A stretch of DNA of 64,000 nucleotides. Source: Bacteroidia bacterium. GTDB taxonomy: Bacteria > Bacteroidota > Bacteroidia > M30B66. The position numbers and the translations under genes are program-made. The notes beneath the pieces are model-generated. The model was not told where the DNA came from and made no database searches. It was given only the letters and a program-made list of their open reading frames with translations. Location: NCBI GenBank assembly GCA_019695235.1, contig JAIBAI010000008.1, positions 2,607 to 66,606 on the forward strand. The letters run 5' to 3'. This document shows positions 1 through 52,189 of this stretch, piece by piece; the first letter of the stretch is position 1, and the number at the start of each line of letters is the position of its first letter.

Positions 1-618
1 CTTATCTGTGTTATCGTTTCGGGTGGCTGCCAGTAAGGCGCCCTGTACAGAGGCCGAAACCCAATAGGGAATATTGGCAAAATTAATGGCCCGGTTGGCA
101 CTGAAATAGTCGCTCCAGTCGCCGGGAGTGGTGGTTTTACTAATCCAGTATGCATAGCTCTTGCGGCCAACCAGGGTGGCCATGAGCAAAGGAGCCTGTT
201 CTTTTAGGCTCAGGCGTGAATTGGTTATGTTATCTTCCACATCCGAAAGATAACTGTCAATAGCATTTACGGGAACATTTGATAAACCGTTCAGCATGAT
301 CTCGACAAATATCTGCTGTCGGTTGTTAAACACACTGGCTTTGGACGTTTTGTTTCCAAGCCAGCCTGCAGAGCGGATCAACTGGTTGCCAAAGCCATTC
401 AGCGCCTTGTATATCACCGCTTTCAACTCATTTTCCACGGTTGATGCCGATGCAGGGTAGGGATAGTACAGGGGCTGCACGTAATCGTACACCGCCTGTA
501 CAACATCATCTACCGTCGGGTCGGCAGCAACAACCGCATCCAGTCCCGCAGTAAACTGGGTGCCGATTAACGGGTACGGGTTGATGCGTATGACAGGGTA
601 TTCGATCAAAGAAGGCAT
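1..618 (-). CDS. N-terminal part (about 205 aa) of a paralog of the 1035..2045 protein; the gene runs off the window start
   Basis: Reverse-strand ORF starting at the ATG at 618 (MPSLIEYPVIRINPYPLIGTQ...). About 95% nucleotide identity to 1430..2045, with roughly 10 aa substitutions. The C-terminus, including any Cys tail, lies outside the window. Confidence 0.5.
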   Translation of the reverse strand, partial: MPSLIEYPVIRINPYPLIGTQFTAGLDAVVAADPTVDDVVQAVYDYVQPLYYPYPASASTVENELKAVIYKALNGFGNQLIRSAGWLGNKTSKASVFNNRQQIFVEIMLNGLSNVPVNAIDSYLSDVEDNITNSRLSLKEQAPLLMATLVGRKSYAYWISKTTTPGDWSDYFSANRAINFANIPYWVSASVQGALLAATRNDNTDK

Positions 619-700
619 ATTTTATAAAGAGCAAAAACTATACAAATGGACAACACCGATTATCAATAATTTATTCTTATTTGTCCATACTTTAAGAGAG
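1..700. repeat. Copy A of a tandem duplication covering the gene 5' region plus about 80 bp of upstream sequence
   Basis: 1..700 aligns almost base-for-base with 1415..2120. The upstream stretch is conserved (catattttataaagagcaaaaactatacaaatggacaacaccgattatcaataatttattcttatttgtccatacttt). Confidence 0.8.
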
Positions 701-704
701 GGGT

Positions 705-1022
705 TCACCCGCCCATAAACCACCAAAATAAACGAATGAGAGCAGACATCCCAAAAACAAGGACCATAAAAGCGTATAGTTTTTCGTTAAACAAAGATGC
801 TCTTTTAATTTTTGGAGCAAGAACCGGTATAGAAAGCAGGCACAGGGTCAGCAACAATATGTTCATTCCCTGAGGAGAAATCAGGTTAAGGTAGGATATT
901 CTAAACATATCCATTCGATCTTCAAATGTTTCTGTATTTTTTGTTATTATGTAACCTAAAATAAAATCATAAATATTCAGGAGAAATACTATAAATGTAA
1001 ATCGAATCAAATTAGCCCTCAT
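705..1022 (-). CDS. Small hydrophobic protein (105 aa, about 3 TM helices), possibly an immunity or accessory membrane protein
   Basis: ATG at 1022, 12 nt downstream of the stop of the 1035..2045 gene on the same strand. Three hydrophobic segments (FTFIVFLLNIYDFILGYII, ILLLTLCLLSIPVLA, YAFMVLVFGMSALIRLFWWF). Confidence 0.45.
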   Translation of the reverse strand: MRANLIRFTFIVFLLNIYDFILGYIITKNTETFEDRMDMFRISYLNLISPQGMNILLLTLCLLSIPVLAPKIKRASLFNEKLYAFMVLVFGMSALIRLFWWFMGG

Positions 1023-1034
1023 CTTTTTTATATG

Positions 1035-2045
1035 TTAACCGGGTTGGCAGAATGGCCCCCCGCAAAGAATATAATGACCACAGTTAAAACATGCAGCATC
1101 ATGGTACCAGCATACCTCATGCCACAGATAACAACAACCCTTATAATTACCGCAACACCCCCAGTCCTTACCTAAGCCTAATTTGCATGTTGCTGTCGGT
1201 TTTGGTTTTGGTTTCCATCTTCCGGAATCTTCTCCACCATTCCCGGTTTCTTCAACTTGGTTTATCCTATTGCCTCCGAAAATTTCATTTAGCCGTTCTG
1301 TTTCCAACTTTGCTAGTTCAAAATGAATTTTAGGTCTTCTGGATATGTAATTCAACATCACCCTACTGGCAGCAACTGCCAAACTGGAGGCCAGGGCATG
1401 CGCCGGATCAATGCTTACATTTTGGGGCTTATCTGCATTATCGTTTCGGGTGGCTGCAAGTAAGGCGCCCTGTACAGAGGCCGAAACCCAATAGGGAATA
1501 TTGGCAAAATTAATGGCCCGGTTCGCATTGAAATAGCCGCTCCAGTCGCCGGGAGTGGTCGTTTTACTAATCCAGTATGCATAGCTCTTGCGGCCAACCA
1601 GGGTGGCCATGAGTAAAGGAGCCTGCTCTTTTAGGCTCAGGCGTGAATTGGTTATGTTATCTTCCACATCCGAAAGATAACTGTCAATAGCATTTACGGG
1701 AACATTTGATAAACCGTTAAGCATGATTTCGACAAATACCTGCTGTCGGTTGTTAAACACATTGGCTTTGGACGTTTTGTTTCCAGGCCAGCCTGCAGAG
1801 CGGATCATCTGGTTGCCAAAGCCATTCAGCGCCTTGTATATCACCGCTTTCAACTCATTTTCCACGGCTGATGCCGATGCCGGGTAGGGATAGTACAGGG
1901 GCTGCACGTAATCGTACACCGCCTGTACAACATCATCTACCGTCGAATCAGCAGCAACAACCGCATCCAGTCCTGCGGTAAACTGGGTACCGATTAACGG
2001 GTACGGGTTGATGCGTATGACAGGGTATTCGATCAAATAAGCCAT
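1035..2045 (-). CDS. 336-aa protein with no signal peptide: about 257-aa N-domain ending in a double-glycine leader-like motif (LAKLETERLNEIFGG), then a Gly/Pro/Lys linker and a 10-Cys C-terminal tail
   Basis: Complete ORF. Motif L(-12)/E(-9)/L(-7)/I(-4)/GG(-2,-1) at aa 246-258; second GG at aa 270-271. Ten Cys in the last 50 aa (CKLGLGKDWGCCGNYKGCCYLWHEVCWYHDAACFNCGHYILCGGPFC). A tandem paralog lies upstream. Confidence 0.6.
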   Translation of the reverse strand: MAYLIEYPVIRINPYPLIGTQFTAGLDAVVAADSTVDDVVQAVYDYVQPLYYPYPASASAVENELKAVIYKALNGFGNQMIRSAGWPGNKTSKANVFNNRQQVFVEIMLNGLSNVPVNAIDSYLSDVEDNITNSRLSLKEQAPLLMATLVGRKSYAYWISKTTTPGDWSGYFNANRAINFANIPYWVSASVQGALLAATRNDNADKPQNVSIDPAHALASSLAVAASRVMLNYISRRPKIHFELAKLETERLNEIFGGNRINQVEETGNGGEDSGRWKPKPKPTATCKLGLGKDWGCCGNYKGCCYLWHEVCWYHDAACFNCGHYILCGGPFCQPG

Positions 2046-2120
2046 ATTTTATAAAGAGCAAAAACTATACAAATGGACAACACCGATTATCAATAATTTA
2101 TTCTTATTTGTCCATACTTT
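1415..2120. repeat. Copy B of the tandem duplication, period about 1414 bp
   Basis: Direct comparison with 1..700. Confidence 0.8.
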
Positions 2121-2355
2121 AAGAAAAGGGTGGAGGGTGTAGAATAACAGAAATCAAAGTTAATAAGTTAAGCTATAAAACCAAAATGATTAAATTTAAC
2201 ATTGATGGTAGAATAAATAAAGAAGTATGACAAGGGGTTTGACTTAAAAAAGAATTCAGCATTTTGGGTAATCAACAACCCGAAAAGCATATCTCAAAGA
2301 GCAGGTACACAAAACTGTTAAAAGGCGACCCTTCCCGGGTTGTCTTTTATTCTTC

Positions 2356-6343: not shown

Positions 6344-6856
6344 TTATACCTTGCGGGAGAGCGGATATTTCTTTAGCATCAGTCGGCCAATAACCAAAGC
6401 ATAAACAAAGCCAATTAAAGCCAAACCAATGAAGGTAAATAAGATCCAGGCTGTTGTAAAAGGGAAAGTTTGTGTTGACTGTATCCAGGCTTCGATATCT
6501 GCCGGATTCGAGCCGTTTGTTTTTAAATCTTCGATACGGTTGGCAACAAACCTTGCTTTAAAATCAACATCAAGGTAGTTGAGATACACATACAGAAACA
6601 GGGTATAAATGAGGGATGCCAACAAGGCAATCGAAATGGCAGGTTTAAACGCATCTAAAAAGCCCATTCCATTAGGATGCGACAGTTTCCTGCGCTCCTC
6701 TACACCCCGGTACATTCCAATCAGCATAAAGCCCAATACCGGCAATAAGGGGTACTTGCCCAGCAAGCCCTCTGCCTGCCCGCTGAGGAGCAGGCCTGTT
6801 TTCCAAATCACAGAGAGCCCCAGAATGAGGAGGCTGTACTTTGTTTCCGGCTTCAT
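6344..6856 (-). CDS. Small 4-TM membrane protein (DUF4199-like)
   Basis: 170 aa with four hydrophobic segments. Its start overlaps the rho stop (ATGA). Confidence 0.4.
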   Translation of the reverse strand: MKPETKYSLLILGLSVIWKTGLLLSGQAEGLLGKYPLLPVLGFMLIGMYRGVEERRKLSHPNGMGFLDAFKPAISIALLASLIYTLFLYVYLNYLDVDFKARFVANRIEDLKTNGSNPADIEAWIQSTQTFPFTTAWILFTFIGLALIGFVYALVIGRLMLKKYPLSRKV

Positions 6857-8673
6857 CAGGAGTTCATCGAGATGAGAAACTCTTCATTGCTTCTGGTGCC
6901 CTGCATCTGTTTGCTAATGAATTCCATAGCTTCAACAGTATTCATGTCGCTCAGGTGGTTTCTAAGAATCCACATTCTTTGCATGGTTTCTTTGTCAACC
7001 AGCAAGTCGTCTCTTCTGGTACCTGACGACATGAGGTCAATCGCCGGGAACACCCGTTTGTTGGCCAACTTACGGTCGAGCTGTAATTCCATGTTACCGG
7101 TTCCTTTGAACTCTTCGAAGATTACTTCATCCATTTTCGAGCCGGTATCAATCAATGCTGTAGCAAGGATGGTCAGAGAGCCGCCTTTTTCAATTTTCCG
7201 TGCTGCTCCGAAGAAGCGTTTGGGTTTGTGAAGGGCATTTGCATCTACCCCGCCGGAGAGTACTTTTCCGGAGGCAGGTTGCACCGTATTGTATGCTCTG
7301 GCAAGGCGGGTAATTGAATCTAACAGGATGACTACATCATGGCCGCACTCTACCAGTCGTTTTGATTTTTCTAATACGATATTGGCAATTTTCACGTGGC
7401 GGTCGGCAGGTTCATCAAAAGTAGATGCAATCACCTCGGCTCTAACGCTTCGTGCCATATCGGTTACCTCTTCCGGCCGCTCATCAACCAATAAAATAAT
7501 CAGGTACACTTCCGGATGGTTGTCTGCGATGGCGTTTGCCACCTCTTTGAGTAAAACGGTTTTTCCGGTTTTTGGCTGCGCTACAATCAGGCCCCGCTGG
7601 CCTTTACCGATGGGGGCGAACAAATCAAGGACGCGGGTAGAAAGTGTTCCGTGTCGGTGGTTGGCGAGTTTTAATTTCTCATCAGGGAACATTGGTGTGA
7701 GGAAATCAAAAGGCACCCGATCACGTACAAACGATGGGTCGCGTCCGTTAATTTTCTCAATTTTCACCAGCGGGAAGTATTTCTCACCCTCTTTGGGTGG
7801 TCTTACAAATCCGTTGACGGTATCGCCTGTTTTCAGTCCGTGGAGTTTGATTTGCCCGGCAGCCACATACACATCATCTGGTGAGGCAAGGTAATTATAG
7901 TCGGATGAGCGCATAAACCCATAGCCTTCGGGCATGATTTCCATGACACCTTCAGCCTGCACCAACAGGTCAGGAACTGGTATTTCGGGCTGGTTCGGCT
8001 GGTTTTGTTGATTCTGTTGGCTTTGTTGTGGATTTCTTGGCAGGTTCTGGCGATTACCCGGAGGAATATTTTGCCAGTTGTTACGTTGCTCGTGTTGTCT
8101 TTGTTGTTGCTGTTGAACCTGTGGAGCAGGGGCCGGGTTGGGGCCGGGTGCACTTACTGCACCTTCTACTGCCTGGGGTGGCTGGTAGTCGGCCAGGTTA
8201 TCGCCTCGTTTGTCAAAGGTCACCCTGTTAGTTCTCTCTTCGCCCGAACGGTGTTTTGGATGTGGTTTCCTGAAGGGAGCTGGCGGCTCTTTTAGTTCTC
8301 TTGCCGGTTCTTTGCTTAGGGGTGCAGTCTGAGCAGGTTTCTCTGTCTTTTCCGGCATGGGTCGTCTGGGCTTGCGCTCCACACGGGGCTGGGCTTTTTC
8401 AGGACTTGTCTGCACCAAAGGCTTGACCTCAGCTTCTAAAGCGGGGGCGGGTGGTGCTGGTTCTTCGCCTGTTACTTTTACCGGCGTTGGTGCTGGTGTA
8501 CTGCTTCGCTTTAATTTTGAAGCCATTTCCGGTTTTACGGCCTGTTCATCGAGGATTTTGTAAACCAGTTCGCTTTTTTTCAGTGATTCCGATTTAGGAA
8601 TCTCAAGTTGCTTGGCAATGTCGCGTAATTCACCAACGAGCTTTGCATTCAACTCTGTAATATCATACATCAT
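6856..8673 (-). CDS. rho: Transcription termination factor Rho with a large Q/N/P-rich N-terminal insertion
   Basis: Rho N-terminus [24 protein letters not shown]. Walker [26 protein letters not shown]. About 190-aa low-complexity insert ([18 protein letters not shown]...[14 protein letters not shown]). Confidence 0.95.
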
Positions 8674-34594: not shown

Positions 34595-35482
34595 ATGGCC
34601 AGTCTGAAGGAAGTTAGAAACCGTATTACCTCTGTAAGCTCAACACAGCAGATTACAAATGCCATGAAAATGGTGTCTGCCGCTAAATTGCGCAGGGCAC
34701 AAGACGCCATTCTTCGGTTAAGGCCTTATGCTGAAAAATTGCAGGAGATTCTGGGCAACCTGAGCACCAGTGCCGAAAATGCTGAAAGTGGAGTATATAC
34801 TGCCCAAAGAGAACCTAAGAAAGTTCTGATGGTGGTTATATCTTCAAACAGAGGTCTTGCAGGGGCTTTCAACGCCAACGTAATGAAAGAAGCCCGGAAA
34901 ATAGTCAACACACGTTATGCCAGCCAATTGGCCGAAGGCAATGTGTCATGGATGTCAATTGGAAAGAAGTCGGGTGATATCATCACAAAAAGTCAGTTCA
35001 ATTTGCTAAGCAGCCACAATGAACTTTTTGATGGCTTAAGCTTTGAGAAGGTATCCCTGCTGGCCCAACGCATCATGGATGGCTTTGTTGCCAAGGAGTT
35101 TGACCGGGTCGAAATTGTGTATAACCGCTTTAAGAATGCAGCGGTACAAATACTTACTACTGAGCAATTCTTACCGGTTCCACCTCCTGTTGCATCAAGT
35201 GAAGGTACAAAATCACAAAGTTTCGACTATATCTTCGAACCAGACCAGCAAACGATTGTAGAAGAATTGATTCCCAAATCACTCAAAACACAATTGTACA
35301 AAGCAATTTTAGATTCTTTTGCTGCTGAACATGGTGCCCGTATGACTGCCATGAACAAAGCAACCGACAATGCCCGTGAGTTACTCAAAGAACTTCGTTT
35401 GACTTACAACAAAGCCCGTCAGGCATCTATTACTAACGAAATCCTCGAGATTGTTGGTGGCGCTGAAGCCTTAAACGGCTAA
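34595..35482 (+). CDS. atpG: ATP synthase subunit gamma
   Basis: MASLKEVRNRITSVSSTQQITNAMKMVSAAKLRRAQ N-terminus. C-terminus ...ITNEILEIVGGAEALNG. Confidence 0.9.
   Translation: MASLKEVRNRITSVSSTQQITNAMKMVSAAKLRRAQDAILRLRPYAEKLQEILGNLSTSAENAESGVYTAQREPKKVLMVVISSNRGLAGAFNANVMKEARKIVNTRYASQLAEGNVSWMSIGKKSGDIITKSQFNLLSSHNELFDGLSFEKVSLLAQRIMDGFVAKEFDRVEIVYNRFKNAAVQILTTEQFLPVPPPVASSEGTKSQSFDYIFEPDQQTIVEELIPKSLKTQLYKAILDSFAAEHGARMTAMNKATDNARELLKELRLTYNKARQASITNEILEIVGGAEALNG
35397..35480. repeat. Left copy of an 84-bp perfect direct repeat (the 3' end of atpG)
   Basis: gtttgacttacaacaaagcccgtcaggcatctattactaacgaaatcctcgagattgttggtggcgctgaagccttaaacggct is identical to 36124..36207. Confidence 0.85.
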
Positions 35483-35510
35483 GGTTCATACGTGATTGCA
35501 GAAAAAAGGT

Positions 35511-35864
35511 TTAAGGCTGTACCCGCCTGACAATTTCAAGACAGCCCTCTTTGCGGTTAGTGTCTGAAATAAAATCTCTGATATCTTGGAAATGGGCTAA
35601 TAATAAAGCTACAATGCTTTTAGTGCCAGTATTTCCGGTTCGCAACCAAATTATCTTAGGTGGGTAACCATATAGTGTCAAAAGGTCGAAGAAATCAGCA
35701 TCAAAAGTTACAATGATACATTGATTTTCTTTTGCAAATTGCCAAATTTGGCTATCAGAAGCAGCAGCAAGGTCAAAGTCTTTAACATGCTTTGCTTCCG
35801 GAAATTTATCTTTTATCTCCTGCAGAACTCTGAAAGAAATATTTTGATCAAGCAATAATTTCAC
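35511..35864 (-). CDS. DUF5615/PIN-like putative toxin
   Basis: 117 aa (MKLLLDQNISFRVLQEIKDKFPEAKHVKDF...). It forms the usual pair with the DUF433 gene and overlaps its stop. GTG start. Confidence 0.5.
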   Translation of the reverse strand: MKLLLDQNISFRVLQEIKDKFPEAKHVKDFDLAAASDSQIWQFAKENQCIIVTFDADFFDLLTLYGYPPKIIWLRTGNTGTKSIVALLLAHFQDIRDFISDTNRKEGCLEIVRRVQP

Positions 35865-36085
35865 AATGCAATTCTAAGCATGTGCTCCCGTTCAGCGGCA
35901 TAGGCCAAAACAGCCTGTATATCTTCAATGGTCAACTCAGGAAAATCTGAAACAATCTCATCACGAGTCATACCCGAAGCCAGCCACCCTAAAATGTCAT
36001 AAACCGTAATTCTCAGGCCACGTACACATGGCCTGCCAAAACGAACCTGAGGGTTAATGGTTATGATTTCTGTATAATGTTTCAT
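35861..36085 (-). CDS. DUF433 domain protein, putative antitoxin
   Basis: DUF433 signature ...RFGRPCVRGLRITVYDILGWLASGMTRDEIVSDFPELTIEDIQAVLAYA. ATG at 36085. Confidence 0.55.
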   Translation of the reverse strand: MKHYTEIITINPQVRFGRPCVRGLRITVYDILGWLASGMTRDEIVSDFPELTIEDIQAVLAYAAEREHMLRIAL

Positions 36086-36123
36086 GCAACTAAGATACAA
36101 AAATTTGCTGCGATTCGCAAGCT

Positions 36124-36207
36124 GTTTGACTTACAACAAAGCCCGTCAGGCATCTATTACTAACGAAATCCTCGAGATTGTTGGTGGCGCTGAAGCCTTA
36201 AACGGCT
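36124..36207. repeat. Right copy of the 84-bp direct repeat, a duplicated atpG 3' fragment
   Basis: Identical to 35397..35480 and followed by TGA rather than TAA. Confidence 0.85.
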
Positions 36208-49824: not shown

Positions 49825-51177
49825 ATGAAAAAACTGCTACCCGCCTTTGTAGGCTGTTTTCTGCTTTGGCTCCTGCCAGCAGGGGCTCAAAATTACAATG
49901 TAACTTTTACGGTTGATTTAGGAACAGCCGTTACCCCGCATGCAAATGGGGTGCATATTGCCGGAGATTTTCAGTCAGAGGCTGGGTTTCCTAACGATTG
50001 GGAACCAGGAACCACCGCTTTGACCAATGTACAAGGTACCAACAAATACACTGTTACTGTTCAGATTCCGGCAGGTACCTATAACTACAAATTCGTTAAT
50101 GGTGACAACTGGGGCAATGGCATGGAAGAATCTATTCCAAGTGAATGTGCTTCGGGAGGTAACCGCACACTTGAAGTGAGTGGCGATGTTACCGCTGCTT
50201 TCTGCTATGGCAGCTGCCTGAACGAATGCCCTGCTTCGATTACATACCACACCCTGACGCTGAATATTGACATGCGTTACAACTGTAAATTCAATACCGA
50301 TGGCTCTGATTCGGTTGATTTTGCAGGCCCATACAACAACTGGGCTGGTGGTGATTACCTGTCGGATATTGATGGTGATGGTATTTTCAGCATTGAGCTT
50401 GACAGTGTTCCTGAAGGTGAATTCCAGTACAAAGCCCGTATCATTAAAAACCTATCGCCCGACTGGGAATCAGGCAGCAACAAAACAATTATGGTGAACA
50501 GCGATACCGTTGCTGCAACACGTTGTTTCGGAGCTGATGTAGCCGGTCAGTGCAGCCCTATTCCTGCACCTGGCGATGTAACATTCAGGGTTGACCTTAC
50601 CGAGGAGGTGCCTGCTGCCAATATTTACCTGATTGGCGACTTCACCAACCCTCCGTGGCAAGGTGGTGCTATTGAGTTGTCGCCTGTTTCCGGAAGTCCT
50701 GGGGTGTACGAAGCAACCGTAGAAGATATTTGCCCTGGTACTATCGCCTTTAAATTCGTTAACGGTGATGTGAACACTCCAGCGAACGAGGAAGCCATTA
50801 CTGATTCTACTTGTTCTGCAGACAATGGCGTAGGTGGCAGAAACAGAGTGTTTACCCGTCCAAGCGCTGACCCACAGCTGATTTACTACAAATACAACAC
50901 ATGTACCGACTTAACAGTTGGTATGGTTGACTTCCAGACTGAACAAGCCCGTATGATTCCAAATCCGGCCAGCAATGGTACACAACTTATTTTCGGTAAC
51001 AGTACTGATATCTATACTGTATCACTGTTCAATCTGGTTGGTAAAAAGCATTTTGAGAAATCTGGTGTTTCTGGTAACCTGACTATCGAAAGAGGTACGC
51101 TTAACGCAGGCATCTATTTTGTTCAAATTACCAATGCCAAAGGCCAGAAATCAGTGCAAAAACTGATTTTCAACTAA
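49825..51177 (+). CDS. Secreted protein with three CBM20/25/26-like starch-binding repeats and a T9SS CTD
   Basis: Signal peptide LLWLLPAGAQ. Three repeats of the pattern VTFTVDL...GDF...W....Y.YKFVNGD. CTD IYTVSLFNLVGKK...GIYFVQITNAKGQKSVQKLIFN. Confidence 0.6.
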   Translation: MKKLLPAFVGCFLLWLLPAGAQNYNVTFTVDLGTAVTPHANGVHIAGDFQSEAGFPNDWEPGTTALTNVQGTNKYTVTVQIPAGTYNYKFVNGDNWGNGMEESIPSECASGGNRTLEVSGDVTAAFCYGSCLNECPASITYHTLTLNIDMRYNCKFNTDGSDSVDFAGPYNNWAGGDYLSDIDGDGIFSIELDSVPEGEFQYKARIIKNLSPDWESGSNKTIMVNSDTVAATRCFGADVAGQCSPIPAPGDVTFRVDLTEEVPAANIYLIGDFTNPPWQGGAIELSPVSGSPGVYEATVEDICPGTIAFKFVNGDVNTPANEEAITDSTCSADNGVGGRNRVFTRPSADPQLIYYKYNTCTDLTVGMVDFQTEQARMIPNPASNGTQLIFGNSTDIYTVSLFNLVGKKHFEKSGVSGNLTIERGTLNAGIYFVQITNAKGQKSVQKLIFN

Positions 51178-51202
51178 GCAATTTGTGCTGAAAACATAAA
51201 GC

Positions 51203-51240
51203 AAAAGCCCCTTGCCATATTGGCAAGGGGCTTTTGCTTT
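51203..51240 (+). terminator. Rho-independent terminator
   Basis: AAAGCCCCTTGCCatatTGGCAAGGGGCTTT followed by TGCTTT. Confidence 0.7.
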
Positions 51241-51325
51241 ATATGCACCTTCAAAATACCTACTTTTGCACCTTCATTGTTCAGAGCATCGAACAGCCTG
51301 AACATCATGAGTTTTATTTTCAAAA

Positions 51326-52189
51326 GTGAAGCGTTACTCTCAACTACTTAAACTACGCCTTTCATGGCTGGTGGTTTTCAGTGCAGTGATTACCTACCTG
51401 ATGGCCGATATGCGCACCAACACCCCACACGACTGGTGGAGGGTGCTTATGCTTACCATCGGTGGTTTTATGGTTACCGGCTCATCAAATGCTTTTAACC
51501 AAATCATCGAGCGAAACCTCGACCGGATGATGAGTCGTACGGAAAAACGCCCTATGCCACTAAGAGAAATTTCTATGCCTGCAGCGCTCACTTTCGCTAC
51601 GCTAACCTCTCTGGGGGGCATTGTTATTCTCTGGGTTTTCCTCAATCCACTCTCAGGCATTCTGGGCCTGGTAGCCTTGCTGCTTTATGTGCTTGTTTAC
51701 ACTCCCATGAAACGTATCAGCCCTTTCGCTGTATTTATGGGAGCGTTCCCAGGTGCAGTCCCCCCGCTTTTAGGATGGGCTGCTTCAACAGGTGCAATGG
51801 ATTTTGAAGGATGGGTGCTGTTTGCTATTCAGTTCCTTTGGCAATTGCCCCACTTCTGGGCACTTGCATGGATGCTGCACGATGACTATCTGAAAGCAGG
51901 TTTCTGGATGTTACCCGCCGCCGACGGACGTTCAAAAACATCTGCCCTGCAAATCATGATTTATACCGCCGGAATAATTCCTGTCGGCTTGCTTCCTTAC
52001 CTCTTCGGGTTTGCAGGTGTTGTTTCAGCAGTTATCGTAACCCTGTGCGGTATTTATTTCCTGTTTCGCTCTGTAAAGCTGCACAAGAGCCTCTCTGTGC
52101 AAGATGGAAAGCAACTTTTATTCGCATCACTTATCTACCTCCCGGTGGTGCAACTTGCACTGATGTTTGATACCATACCCCTTCAATGA
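51326..52189 (+). CDS. cyoE: Protoheme IX farnesyltransferase (heme O synthase)
   Basis: UbiA-family polytopic protein. GTG start at 51326. Followed by a cox3-like gene. Confidence 0.75.
   Translation: MKRYSQLLKLRLSWLVVFSAVITYLMADMRTNTPHDWWRVLMLTIGGFMVTGSSNAFNQIIERNLDRMMSRTEKRPMPLREISMPAALTFATLTSLGGIVILWVFLNPLSGILGLVALLLYVLVYTPMKRISPFAVFMGAFPGAVPPLLGWAASTGAMDFEGWVLFAIQFLWQLPHFWALAWMLHDDYLKAGFWMLPAADGRSKTSALQIMIYTAGIIPVGLLPYLFGFAGVVSAVIVTLCGIYFLFRSVKLHKSLSVQDGKQLLFASLIYLPVVQLALMFDTIPLQ

What the first reader, a model, noticed from the sequence alone, without database searches (positions are those of the whole stretch)
1..2120. Recent tandem duplication of the gene plus about 80 bp of its upstream region, with substitutions concentrated in the protein
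1..700 and 1415..2120 are nearly identical, including an exactly conserved upstream stretch with a candidate promoter. The two encoded N-domains differ at about 10 of 205 residues (for example S34P, A60T, M80L, P87L, N95S, V103I, G170D, N173S, A204T). That is a high nonsynonymous fraction for such a recent duplicate, which suggests diversifying selection or gene conversion in a variable effector array. Copy A's C-terminus lies outside the window, so whether it carries a different tail is unknown.
Basis: seen in the sequence. Interest (0 to 1): 0.55.

Follow-up and report, generated by a model that had tools for sequence, protein, structure and literature searches.

The report
Tandem bacteriocin-precursor genes, swappable tails
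The repeat is real: two neighbouring genes share a promoter and a large, uncatalogued N-terminal domain but most likely carry different cysteine-rich toxin-like tails with their own membrane "immunity" genes, and the shared part is kept alike by purifying selection and gene conversion, not diversified.

Summary
The duplication is confirmed. Window 1-704 matches 1428-2131 at 96.2% identity, and the 79 nt upstream of each ATG are identical. Both genes lie on the minus strand.

Of 25 coding differences, 14 are synonymous and 11 are not, giving dN/dS = 0.23 (purifying selection).

The shared part is a soluble, all-helical domain of about 235 aa. It has no Pfam, NCBIfam, PDB or Foldseek relative. 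HMMER finds 278 clusters of it among 1.84 billion representatives, mostly traceable to Bacteroidota.

In copy B this domain is followed by a Bacteroidetes-type leader motif (FxLxKx5L...GG), a 78-aa core with 10 Cys, and then a 105-aa gene with three predicted transmembrane segments.

A 98%-identical contig from another sample runs past the window edge. It shows copy A with a different, hydrophobic Cys-rich tail. In close relatives that tail type is followed by an SdpI-like membrane gene.

Related loci carry N-truncated "orphan" tail-plus-immunity cassettes. Strain comparisons show mosaic A/B alleles, which indicates gene conversion. Distant members sit beside LanB/LanC or an ATP-grasp enzyme, or carry a fulvocin-like tail.

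Best reading: part of a polymorphic bacteriocin/RiPP-precursor array with a new protein-sized leader or carrier domain. Toxicity, processing and immunity are all inferred, not tested.

The parts
1..618 (-). Copy A, N-terminal 206 codons of the conserved N-domain. The ORF is open and runs off the window start, so its tail is not in the window.
   Evidence: Translation. It is 94.7% aa and 96% nt identical to copy B. The orthologous scaffold L009 (98.2% nt) continues into a type-2 tail.
619..704 (-). Upstream repeat of copy A (86 nt). Positions 619-697 are identical to 2046-2124. It carries sigma70-like hexamers and an 8-bp inverted repeat, ATGGACAA-N27-TTGTCCAT. It starts directly after the stop codon of the 105-aa gene.
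705..1022 (-). 105-aa ORF with three predicted transmembrane segments, 12 nt downstream of copy B. It is the candidate immunity protein for the copy-B (type-1) tail.
   Evidence: ORF. Kyte-Doolittle scan finds 3 TM segments. It is 52% identical (E 1e-37) to the gene directly after the only other type-1 tail on a different contig (L001 17239-17580), and 60% identical to the C-half of L001 19052-19753. No Pfam, NCBIfam, PADLOC or PHROG match.
1038..1271 (-). Copy B putative core or mature peptide, residues 259-336 (78 aa, 10 Cys). The stop codon is at 1035-1037.
   Evidence: Sequence and composition. All 10 Cys are conserved in P0005. No PDB sequence relative. AF2 pLDDT is below 50 here.
1272..1322 (-). 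Copy B leader-like motif FELAKLETERLNEIFGG (residues 242-258). It has the form FxLxKx5L followed by Gly-Gly.
   Evidence: Regex scan. The LxLxKx5L + GG motif is described for Bacteroidetes class I LanA leaders in PMC7268733. The same position in relative P0013 reaches the NCBIfam lant_leader_L1a cut-off.
1335..2045 (-). Copy B conserved N-domain, residues 1-237. It is a soluble all-alpha domain of about 11 helices.
   Evidence: AF2 with 54 sequences gives pLDDT mostly above 90 over residues 11-235 and pTM 0.72. Maximum Kyte-Doolittle value is 1.19, so no TM segment is predicted. The family has 278 clusters by HMMER. No Pfam or NCBIfam family. No PDB or BFVD fold match.
2046..2131 (-). Upstream repeat of copy B (86 nt), with the same promoter-like hexamers and inverted repeat as 619-704.

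Best explanation
Window 1-2131 is the promoter-proximal end of a polymorphic bacteriocin/RiPP-precursor array in a Bacteroidota chromosome, read on the minus strand. Each unit has a promoter region, then a gene for a conserved, soluble, all-helical N-domain of about 235 aa, then a short Bacteroidetes-type leader motif (LxLxKx5L, often ending in GG), then a hypervariable Cys-rich C-terminal peptide. A small polytopic membrane protein gene follows, and it co-varies with the tail type. Copy B carries a type-1 tail (78 aa after the GG, 10 Cys) and is followed by the 105-aa gene with three predicted TM segments. Copy A shares the promoter and N-domain. By inference from a 98%-identical scaffold, it carries a type-2 tail with one hydrophobic glycine-rich helix flanked by Cys clusters. 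In close relatives that tail type is followed by an SdpI-like gene. Inferred mechanism, not shown: the N-domain acts as a protein-sized leader or carrier that keeps the peptide inactive and directs processing and export. The tail is cut off near the GG and acts on the membrane of competitors. The downstream membrane protein protects the producer. The conserved promoter plus N-domain also serves as a homology handle. Gene conversion keeps the paralogues alike (concerted evolution). Recombination with N-truncated orphan cassettes can exchange tails, as in CDI/Rhs polymorphic toxin loci.
For: Shown directly:
- The repeat and its extent.
- Purifying selection on the shared domain, dN/dS = 0.23.
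- The homology between copies ends at about codon 233, the junction between N-domain and tail.
- L009 (98.2% identical to copy A, same upstream junction with the 105-aa gene) continues into a tail unrelated to copy B's. It is homologous to the P0002, P0008 and L012 tails.
- Tail and downstream gene co-vary. Type-1 tails are followed by the 105/113-aa family in the window and in L001. Type-2a tails are followed by SdpI-like genes in L001, L008 and L011/L012. The divergent type-2b tail in L010 is followed by an unrelated membrane protein.
- N-truncated orphan cassettes exist: P0005 and an 87-aa fragment in L001, P0008 in L008, P0079 in L011/L012. In L010, 501 nt that are 100% identical to window 1003-1503 sit behind another tail-immunity pair.
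- Alleles are mosaic between strains, P = 5e-4.

Family level:
- 278 clusters with one N-domain and tails ranging from 0 to 360 aa.
- Members lie next to LanC and full-length LanB in L005 and L003 (plus JmjC in L005; plus a second LanC, S41 peptidase and FGE-sulfatase in L003), with no motif-bearing short LanA ORF in the fetched DNA.
- One member lies next to an MvdD-like ATP-grasp gene and has a Cys-free tail containing Thr, Ser, Lys, Asp and Glu.
- One tail is a fulvocin C-related bacteriocin domain, E = 4.9e-28.
- One linker reaches the class I lanthipeptide leader model cut-off.
- The LxLxKx5L-GG motif is the published Bacteroidetes LanA leader type (PMC7268733).
Against: - No toxicity, processing, export or immunity has been tested.
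- Among the 20 larger window ORFs scanned there is no C39/ABC exporter, LanB/C or other maturase. The neighbours are housekeeping genes. The side beyond position 1 is unknown.
- The GG motif is absent from several close relatives (P0005, P0002, P0006).
- 7 of 54 members have no tail, and some carry C-terminal domains of 300 aa or more, which fits a leader role poorly.
- P0003 in L001 has no obvious immunity gene downstream.
- Copy A's tail is inferred from other samples, not read in this assembly.
- Mosaic alleles in short-read contigs could partly be assembly chimeras.
- The SdpI matches re-scored here (L012 827-1180 and the L001 19052-19753 fusion) are below Pfam's gathering score. The stronger SdpI hits on L001 11099-11440 and L008 990-1361 are precomputed listings only.
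Confidence: 0.68

Rival explanations
1. Colicin-like or polymorphic toxin proper. The whole 336-aa protein is released. The N-domain is a trafficking, receptor-binding or translocation domain that stays attached, and the Cys-rich tail is the toxic module. There is no leader cleavage and no post-translational modification.
For: The architecture and the orphan cassettes match polymorphic toxin logic. Some members carry large C-terminal domains of 190-360 aa (P0025, P0032, P0035, P0046). No exporter or peptidase was found nearby. GG is missing in several relatives.
Against: There is no signal peptide or known secretion-system domain (sequence). A lanthipeptide-type leader motif lies between domain and tail. 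Distant members are the only plausible substrates of adjacent LanB/LanC or ATP-grasp enzymes, which act on leader-bearing precursors inside the cell. Many tails are only 10-17 aa long.
Confidence: 0.2
2. The tails of the window genes are true RiPP cores, modified for example by thioether, rSAM or other chemistry. The responsible enzymes are encoded beyond window position 1 or elsewhere, so the products are not disulfide-only bacteriocins.
For: The family is associated with LanB/LanC and ATP-grasp enzymes in L003, L005 and L004. The leader motif is of LanA type. Unclustered maturation genes are known for lanthipeptides (title and abstract of PMC8960859, listed).
Against: The copy-B core has 10 Cys but only 5 Ser/Thr. 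No maturase appears among the 20 larger window ORFs scanned or within 10 kb either side in L001. The arrays are organised as toxin-immunity cassettes rather than biosynthetic clusters.
Confidence: 0.25
3. One reading: a recent duplicate whose N-domain is under diversifying selection.
For: 11 amino-acid differences in 206 residues between adjacent copies.
Against: 14 synonymous differences accompany them. dN/dS = 0.23, significantly below 1. The N-domain is the conserved part across 278 clusters.
Confidence: 0.03
4. Assembly artefact: one gene was expanded into two copies.
For: The window starts inside the repeat. MAG contig L002 also breaks inside copy A, as repeats often cause.
Against: The copies differ at 27 of 704 positions, with copy-specific flanks. 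Two independent assemblies span the B, 105-aa gene, A junction and the 105-aa gene, A, tail junction.
Confidence: 0.02

Closest known systems
Polymorphic toxin systems (CdiA-CT/CdiI, Rhs, MafB type), as surveyed by Zhang et al. 2012, Biol Direct 7:18 (PMC3482391; abstract seen)
   Same: A conserved N-terminal region is joined to hypervariable C-terminal modules. A small cognate gene follows each module. Downstream there are N-truncated orphan cassettes that keep a stretch of the conserved region. There is evidence of recombination between copies.
   Different: No known secretion-system domain (T5, T6, T7, PrsW and so on) is present. The tails are short Cys-rich peptides rather than enzymatic toxin domains. 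A RiPP-type leader motif lies at the junction. Some relatives sit in lanthipeptide or graspetide gene clusters.
NHLP and Nif11 'protein-like' leader families of RiPP precursors (Haft et al. 2010, cited in PMC12537861; structural work in PMC12537861)
   Same: A long, folded leader precedes a GG-type cleavage motif and a hypervariable core. The leader is used across several RiPP classes and often occurs in multi-copy arrays with near-identical leaders.
   Different: No sequence match to the NHLP or Nif11 models (NCBIfam). The domain is far larger than those leaders (by my recollection they are about 70-100 aa; not checked here), at about 235 aa and about 11 helices. It is traced so far mainly to Bacteroidota. 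It is arranged with immunity genes and orphan cassettes.
Bacteroidetes class I lanthipeptide precursors with the LxLxKx5L...GG leader (Walker et al. 2020, PMC7268733)
   Same: Copy B has FxLxKx5L followed by GG six residues later. The relatives P0013, P0034 and P0024 have the exact or a close form of the motif. Members in L003 and L005 lie next to LanB/LanC.
   Different: Here the motif is internal, preceded by a 235-aa domain. The window has no LanB/LanC among the 20 larger ORFs scanned. The copy-B core is Cys-rich but poor in Ser/Thr.
SdpC/SdpI cannibalism toxin and immunity pair of Bacillus subtilis (from general knowledge), and fulvocin C-type Cys-rich bacteriocins (NCBIfam NF033852)
   Same: A peptide toxin is cut from a larger pro-protein and paired with a polytopic membrane immunity protein. 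Type-2 tails in relatives are followed by genes with SdpI-family matches. One family member (P0046) carries a fulvocin-related tail.
   Different: The 105-aa protein in the window matches no family. The re-scored SdpI hits are sub-threshold. Copy B's tail does not match the fulvocin model.

Membership tests
Polymorphic toxin system | Conserved N-terminal region with unrelated C-terminal modules among paralogues or strains | tested here: met
   The N-domain is 96% nt identical between A and B. Copy B's tail differs from the tail of the copy-A orthologue L009. The same pattern appears among six members or fragments in L001.
Polymorphic toxin system | Cognate immunity gene immediately downstream that co-varies with the tail | tested here: met
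   Co-variation by sequence holds for type 1, type 2a and type 2b. Protective function was not tested. P0003 is an exception.
Polymorphic toxin system | Orphan C-terminal cassettes that retain part of the conserved region | tested here: met
   Seen in L001 (P0005 and an 87-aa fragment), L008, L010 and L011/L012. None is visible inside the window itself.
Polymorphic toxin system | Recognisable N-terminal secretion or trafficking domain of a known pathway | tested here: not met
   No Pfam, NCBIfam, PADLOC or PHROG family and no PDB or BFVD fold match for the N-domain.
Polymorphic toxin system | Toxic activity of the C-terminal module, neutralised by the immunity protein | not testable with these tools
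   Requires expression and competition assays.
NHLP / Nif11 leader RiPP precursors | Sequence membership in the NHLP or Nif11 models | tested here: not met
   NCBIfam scan of copy B and of 54 family members gave no such hit.
NHLP / Nif11 leader RiPP precursors | Long folded leader followed by a GG motif and a hypervariable core | tested here: met
   AF2 model of a folded helical domain. Motif and tail survey. This is analogy of architecture, not homology.
NHLP / Nif11 leader RiPP precursors | Co-location with RiPP maturases and a C39 peptidase/ABC exporter | tested here: inconclusive
   Maturases lie next to distant members (L003, L005, L004). None was found among the 20 larger window ORFs scanned. 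No C39 exporter was seen in any fetched locus.
Class I lanthipeptide precursor (Bacteroidetes type) | LxLxKx5L leader motif ending in GG | tested here: met
   Copy B residues 242-258, FELAKLETERLNEIFGG. Motif definition from PMC7268733. Copy B itself is below NCBIfam detection.
Class I lanthipeptide precursor (Bacteroidetes type) | Adjacent LanB dehydratase and LanC cyclase | tested here: not met
   Absent from the 20 larger window ORFs scanned. Present only beside distant relatives.
Fulvocin C-related bacteriocins (NF033852) | Match to the family model | tested here: not met
   Copy B gives no hit. Only relative P0046 matches, E = 4.9e-28.

The most novel reading that the evidence does not exclude
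The shared 235-aa domain is a previously undescribed, class-independent, protein-sized leader or carrier domain of Bacteroidota. It is fused to lanthipeptide, graspetide-like, fulvocin-like and plain Cys-rich cores. Its conservation also serves as the recombination handle of a cassette-switching system, so polymorphic-toxin genetics are applied to RiPP/bacteriocin precursors.
Probability: 0.45. Interest if true: 0.72.

Novelty: new variant of a known kind. Interest (0 to 1): 0.58.

Why it matters
If this reading is right, the locus joins two fields that are usually treated apart. One is RiPP/bacteriocin precursors with folded 'protein-like' leaders. The other is polymorphic toxin arrays with orphan cassettes.

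It would add a third large leader family, structurally unrelated to NHLP and Nif11. That family is invisible to current precursor-mining tools, because it has no Pfam or NCBIfam model and its precursors (about 300 aa) are well above typical short-precursor sizes.

It would give genome miners a handle, the N-domain profile, for finding many Cys-rich peptides and their immunity genes in Bacteroidota.

It would also offer a tractable case for asking what a large folded leader actually does: enzyme recruitment, export, self-protection, or simply providing homology for tail switching.

For the narrow finding, the result is sobering. The duplicated segment is conserved and homogenised, not diversifying.

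Tried and rejected
- AF2 with the 8 close homologues failed (pLDDT 35). It worked only with the 54-sequence alignment.
- Foldseek against PDB and BFVD, a PDB sequence-profile search, and a PDB search with the tail alone all gave nothing significant.
- Pfam, NCBIfam, PADLOC and PHROGs gave nothing for copy B or the 105-aa ORF.
- Rfam on 1-2400 gave only two sub-threshold miRNA chance hits inside the coding repeat.
- A word-indexed protein search with the 54-sequence profile added only two proteins. With the tail alone it returned only the identical P0154.
- The genome-contig scan did not recover the window's own genome, so the assembly could not be extended directly. The metagenome scan gave only short contigs.
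- Upstream regions of paralogues in other species share no conserved motif with the window's 86 nt. No exact Bacteroidetes TAnnTTTG box lies within the 86-nt repeat; copy B has one only at -117, outside it. Only sigma70-like matches were found, and these may not apply to this phylum.
- A membrane-anchored N-domain was rejected (maximum hydropathy 1.19).
- A search for short conventional LanA ORFs beside LanB/LanC in L003 and L005 found none.
- Five literature searches found no description of this domain. Subscription-only papers are not covered.
Full report
**1. The observation**

The window aligned to itself gives one large internal repeat: 1-704 against 1428-2131, 704 nt, 96.2% identical, ungapped (alignment).

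Both copies are read on the minus strand.
- Copy B is a complete ORF, 2045..1035, 336 aa.
- Copy A starts at 618 and is still open at position 1 after 206 codons.

The 79 nt upstream of each ATG are identical. Homology runs to -86, with two mismatches at -80 and -82. The repeat upstream of copy A begins exactly after the stop codon of the intervening 105-aa ORF (705-1022).

The proteins differ at 11 of 206 residues.

The arrangement is not an assembly artefact.
- A MAG contig from a different assembly (L002, GCA_020848765.1, 13 mismatches in 1972 nt) spans copy B, the 105-aa gene and 476 nt of copy A.
- An ENA scaffold (L009) spans the end of the 105-aa gene, copy A and what follows.

**2. Selection and conversion**

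Of the 25 coding differences, 14 are synonymous and 11 nonsynonymous. Nei-Gojobori gives dS = 0.104, dN = 0.024 and dN/dS = 0.23. This is significantly below 1 (Fisher p = 3e-4). The duplicated domain is therefore under purifying selection.

The perfect upstream identity is not significantly different from the coding divergence (0/79 against 25/618, p = 0.10). In L002 and L009 the copy-A upstream stretch carries two changes that the window lacks.

At the 25 discriminating coding sites, L009 (the copy-A orthologue) has this pattern:
- a copy-B allele at codon 2;
- copy-A alleles at codons 3-109;
- copy-B alleles at all six sites in codons 140-174;
- copy-A alleles again at codons 196-204.

A permutation test gives P = 5e-4. 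L002's copy A shows a different patchwork, which is not significant on its own. The simplest reading is gene conversion between the paralogues, with the caveat that short-read contigs can be chimeric.

**3. What the genes encode**

Copy B has no Pfam, NCBIfam, PADLOC or PHROG match. Only eight clusters among 5.8 billion share words with it.

A full HMMER scan with a profile of these sequences found 278 clusters at E <= 1e-3 among 1.84 billion representatives, 215 of them at E <= 1e-10.

All share one N-terminal domain of about 225-235 aa, ending in a motif like AGKVIFKWIPRIQ. What follows that motif varies widely. Among the 54 members examined:
- seven have no tail;
- about nine have 9-17 residues, most of them ending in CxC, often CxCGH;
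- about thirty have 28-100 residues, mostly rich in Cys and/or Ser/Thr;
- seven have 126-360 residues.

AlphaFold2 with 54 sequences gives a confident model: pTM 0.72, and pLDDT mostly above 90 for residues 11-235. It is all-helical, with about 11 helices, and the tail is unstructured. The domain is not hydrophobic enough to be membrane-embedded.

It has no fold match in PDB or BFVD. The best E-values were 0.65 and 0.05, with TM-scores below 0.2. A PDB sequence-profile search also found nothing significant.

**4. The junction and the tails**

In copy B the N-domain is followed by FELAKLETERLNEIFGG (residues 242-258). This is the LxLxKx5L...GG pattern that Walker et al. describe for Bacteroidetes class I lanthipeptide leaders, which are often paired with a C39 protease (PMC7268733). 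Several relatives have the exact or a close form of the motif. In P0013 it reaches the cut-off of the NCBIfam class I lanthipeptide leader model.

After the GG come 78 residues with 10 Cys. All ten are conserved in the only homologous tail from another contig, P0005.

Other members tie the family to peptide natural products:
- In L005 the member is followed by LanC (E = 7.6e-40), a full LanB (E = 3.6e-117) and a JmjC-type enzyme.
- In L003 it sits among two LanC genes, LanB, an S41 peptidase and an FGE-sulfatase.
- Neither locus holds a conventional short LanA with the leader motif.
- In L004 a member with a Cys-free tail containing Thr, Ser, Lys, Asp and Glu precedes an MvdD-like ATP-grasp gene. 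This match is weak and below the gathering score.
- P0046 carries a fulvocin C-related bacteriocin domain, E = 4.9e-28.
- In L007 a tail-poor member is followed by a separate 87-aa ORF containing ...KVNGG.

**5. The array logic**

L009 is 98.2% identical to copy A and shares its upstream junction. It runs past the window edge into ...NYVERISGAEIDSINKIVNILNDKIVSPKPEINIGRHDRPD. This is unrelated to copy B's tail and homologous to the tails of P0002, P0008 and L011/L012. That type-2 tail has Cys clusters flanking one strongly hydrophobic, Gly/Ala-rich helix.

The tail type predicts the next gene.

| Tail type | Where seen | Gene that follows |
|---|---|---|
| Type 1 | Window copy B; L001 (P0005) | 105/113-aa family with three predicted TM segments, 52% identical, E = 1e-37 |
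| Type 2a | L001, L008, L011/L012 | Mutually homologous SdpI-like proteins with three predicted TM segments |
| Type 2b (divergent) | L010 | An unrelated membrane protein |

Supporting calls are 13, 28, 37, 71 and 77. L001 even has a fusion of the two immunity types.

Several loci carry N-truncated orphan copies. These begin at residues 144-182 of the N-domain and keep a tail plus a downstream gene. Examples are P0005 and an 87-aa fragment in L001, P0008 in L008, and P0079 in L011/L012, which lies next to an IS66 element.

In L010, 501 nt that are 100% identical to window 1003-1503 (copy B from about codon 182 through its tail) lie as such an orphan behind a different tail-immunity pair.

Homology between copy A's orthologue and copy B stops at about codon 233, the junction between domain and tail.

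This is the anatomy of a polymorphic toxin locus. It has a conserved 5' region, exchangeable 3' modules with cognate immunity genes, and silent cassettes that can recombine through the conserved segment.

**6. Context**

The rest of the window is ordinary Bacteroidota chromosome. It includes an MBL-fold hydrolase, a Mur ligase family gene, Rho, polysaccharide biosynthesis genes, T9SS cargo proteins, SusC/SusD, ATP synthase, PheT and Nuo. No exporter or maturase was found among the 20 larger ORFs scanned. The array continues beyond position 1, where the window has no data.

**7. Mechanism: what is shown and what is inferred**

Shown:
- the repeat and purifying selection on the shared domain;
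- the different tail on the orthologue of copy A;
- tail-immunity co-variation, orphan cassettes and mosaic alleles;
- association of family members with RiPP enzymes and with a known bacteriocin domain;
- a folded helical domain with no known relative.

Inferred:
- The N-domain acts as a large leader or carrier.
- The tail is released near the GG and exported.
- The tail acts on the membrane of competitors. This is suggested by the polytopic membrane immunity candidates and by the hydrophobic type-2 tail.
- The 105-aa protein confers immunity.
- Conversion and cassette exchange use the N-domain as the homology region.

The main rival is that the whole protein is the toxin and the N-domain is a delivery module. 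It is favoured by members with large C-terminal domains and by the lack of a nearby exporter. It is disfavoured by the internal leader motif and by the LanB/LanC and ATP-grasp contexts.

**8. Comparison and novelty**

The locus works like a polymorphic toxin system and like NHLP/Nif11 precursor arrays, but it is a sequence member of neither. No known trafficking domain is present, and the NHLP and Nif11 models do not match. It shares the leader motif of Bacteroidetes class I lanthipeptides but lacks LanB/LanC in the window.

I found no description of the N-domain in Pfam (2025), NCBIfam (June 2026) or the searchable literature. Subscription-only journals could not be checked.

I therefore rate it a new variant of a known kind. 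The tandem duplication itself is an expected feature of such arrays. The interest lies in the uncatalogued, protein-sized leader or carrier domain and in its combination with cassette genetics.

Noticed in passing
window 35397-35480 and 36124-36207 (insert 35481-36123): An exact 84-nt direct repeat duplicates the 3' end of atpG (34595-35482, PF00231). It flanks a 643-nt insert carrying a DUF433 (35861-36100, minus strand) and DUF5615/PIN-like (35511-35864, minus strand) toxin-antitoxin-like pair. It looks like an insertion that regenerated the gene's end.
   Followed up: partly
window 2073-2080 / 2108-2115 and 646-653 / 681-688 (minus strand): An 8-bp perfect inverted repeat, ATGGACAA-N27-TTGTCCAT, lies inside both copies of the conserved upstream stretch and is kept in L009. 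It overlaps sigma70-like hexamers (TGGACA-17-GATAAT, TTGATA-18-TATAGT). It could be an operator, but the chance expectation is about 0.05 per 86 nt (my own rough estimate).
   Followed up: partly
L001 19052-19753: A 233-aa protein whose N-half is SdpI-like (Pfam 26 bits, below the gathering score). Its C-half is 60% identical to the window's 105-aa ORF. It appears to be a fused double immunity protein at the end of the array.
   Followed up: partly
L007 9986-11031: A distant member (25% identity) has almost no tail. It is followed 38 nt later by a separate 87-aa ORF with a ...KVNGG leader-like motif. This may be a split version in which the domain and the peptide are separate genes.
   Followed up: no
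family members P0010, P0012, P0016, P0030, P0031, P0059, P0006: Many members end in a very short tail with a C-terminal CxC motif, often CxCGH. Examples are GCNCGH, GCGCGH, NCGCH and CNCHD. This looks like a metal-binding or modification site, and no explanation was tested.
   Followed up: no
L001 11514-13884 and 16517-16640: The first 40 or so residues of the orphan P0005 resemble the start of a 108-aa gene (L001 11514-11840, 50% identity over 40 aa). That gene precedes a 125-aa ORF with a PHROG hit of unknown function and a 544-aa repeat protein with no family. This suggests that part of another operon's 5' end was copied in front of the orphan.
   Followed up: partly
window 51196-51242: A 48-nt near-perfect palindrome (95.8% self-complementary) lies between ORFs 49825-51177 and 51326-52189.
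   Followed up: no
window 6856-8673 (minus strand): The ORF at this position reads as Rho with a long, low-complexity N-terminal extension rich in Pro, Gln and Ala (about 230 aa). This is typical of Bacteroidota. The identification was read from the translation and was not run against any family library.
   Followed up: no
L003/L006 record title: The contig carrying P0007 with LanB/LanC is labelled 'uncultured Bifidobacteriaceae' (a TPA MAG), whereas the other traceable members are Bacteroidota. It may be a mis-binned contig.
   Followed up: no
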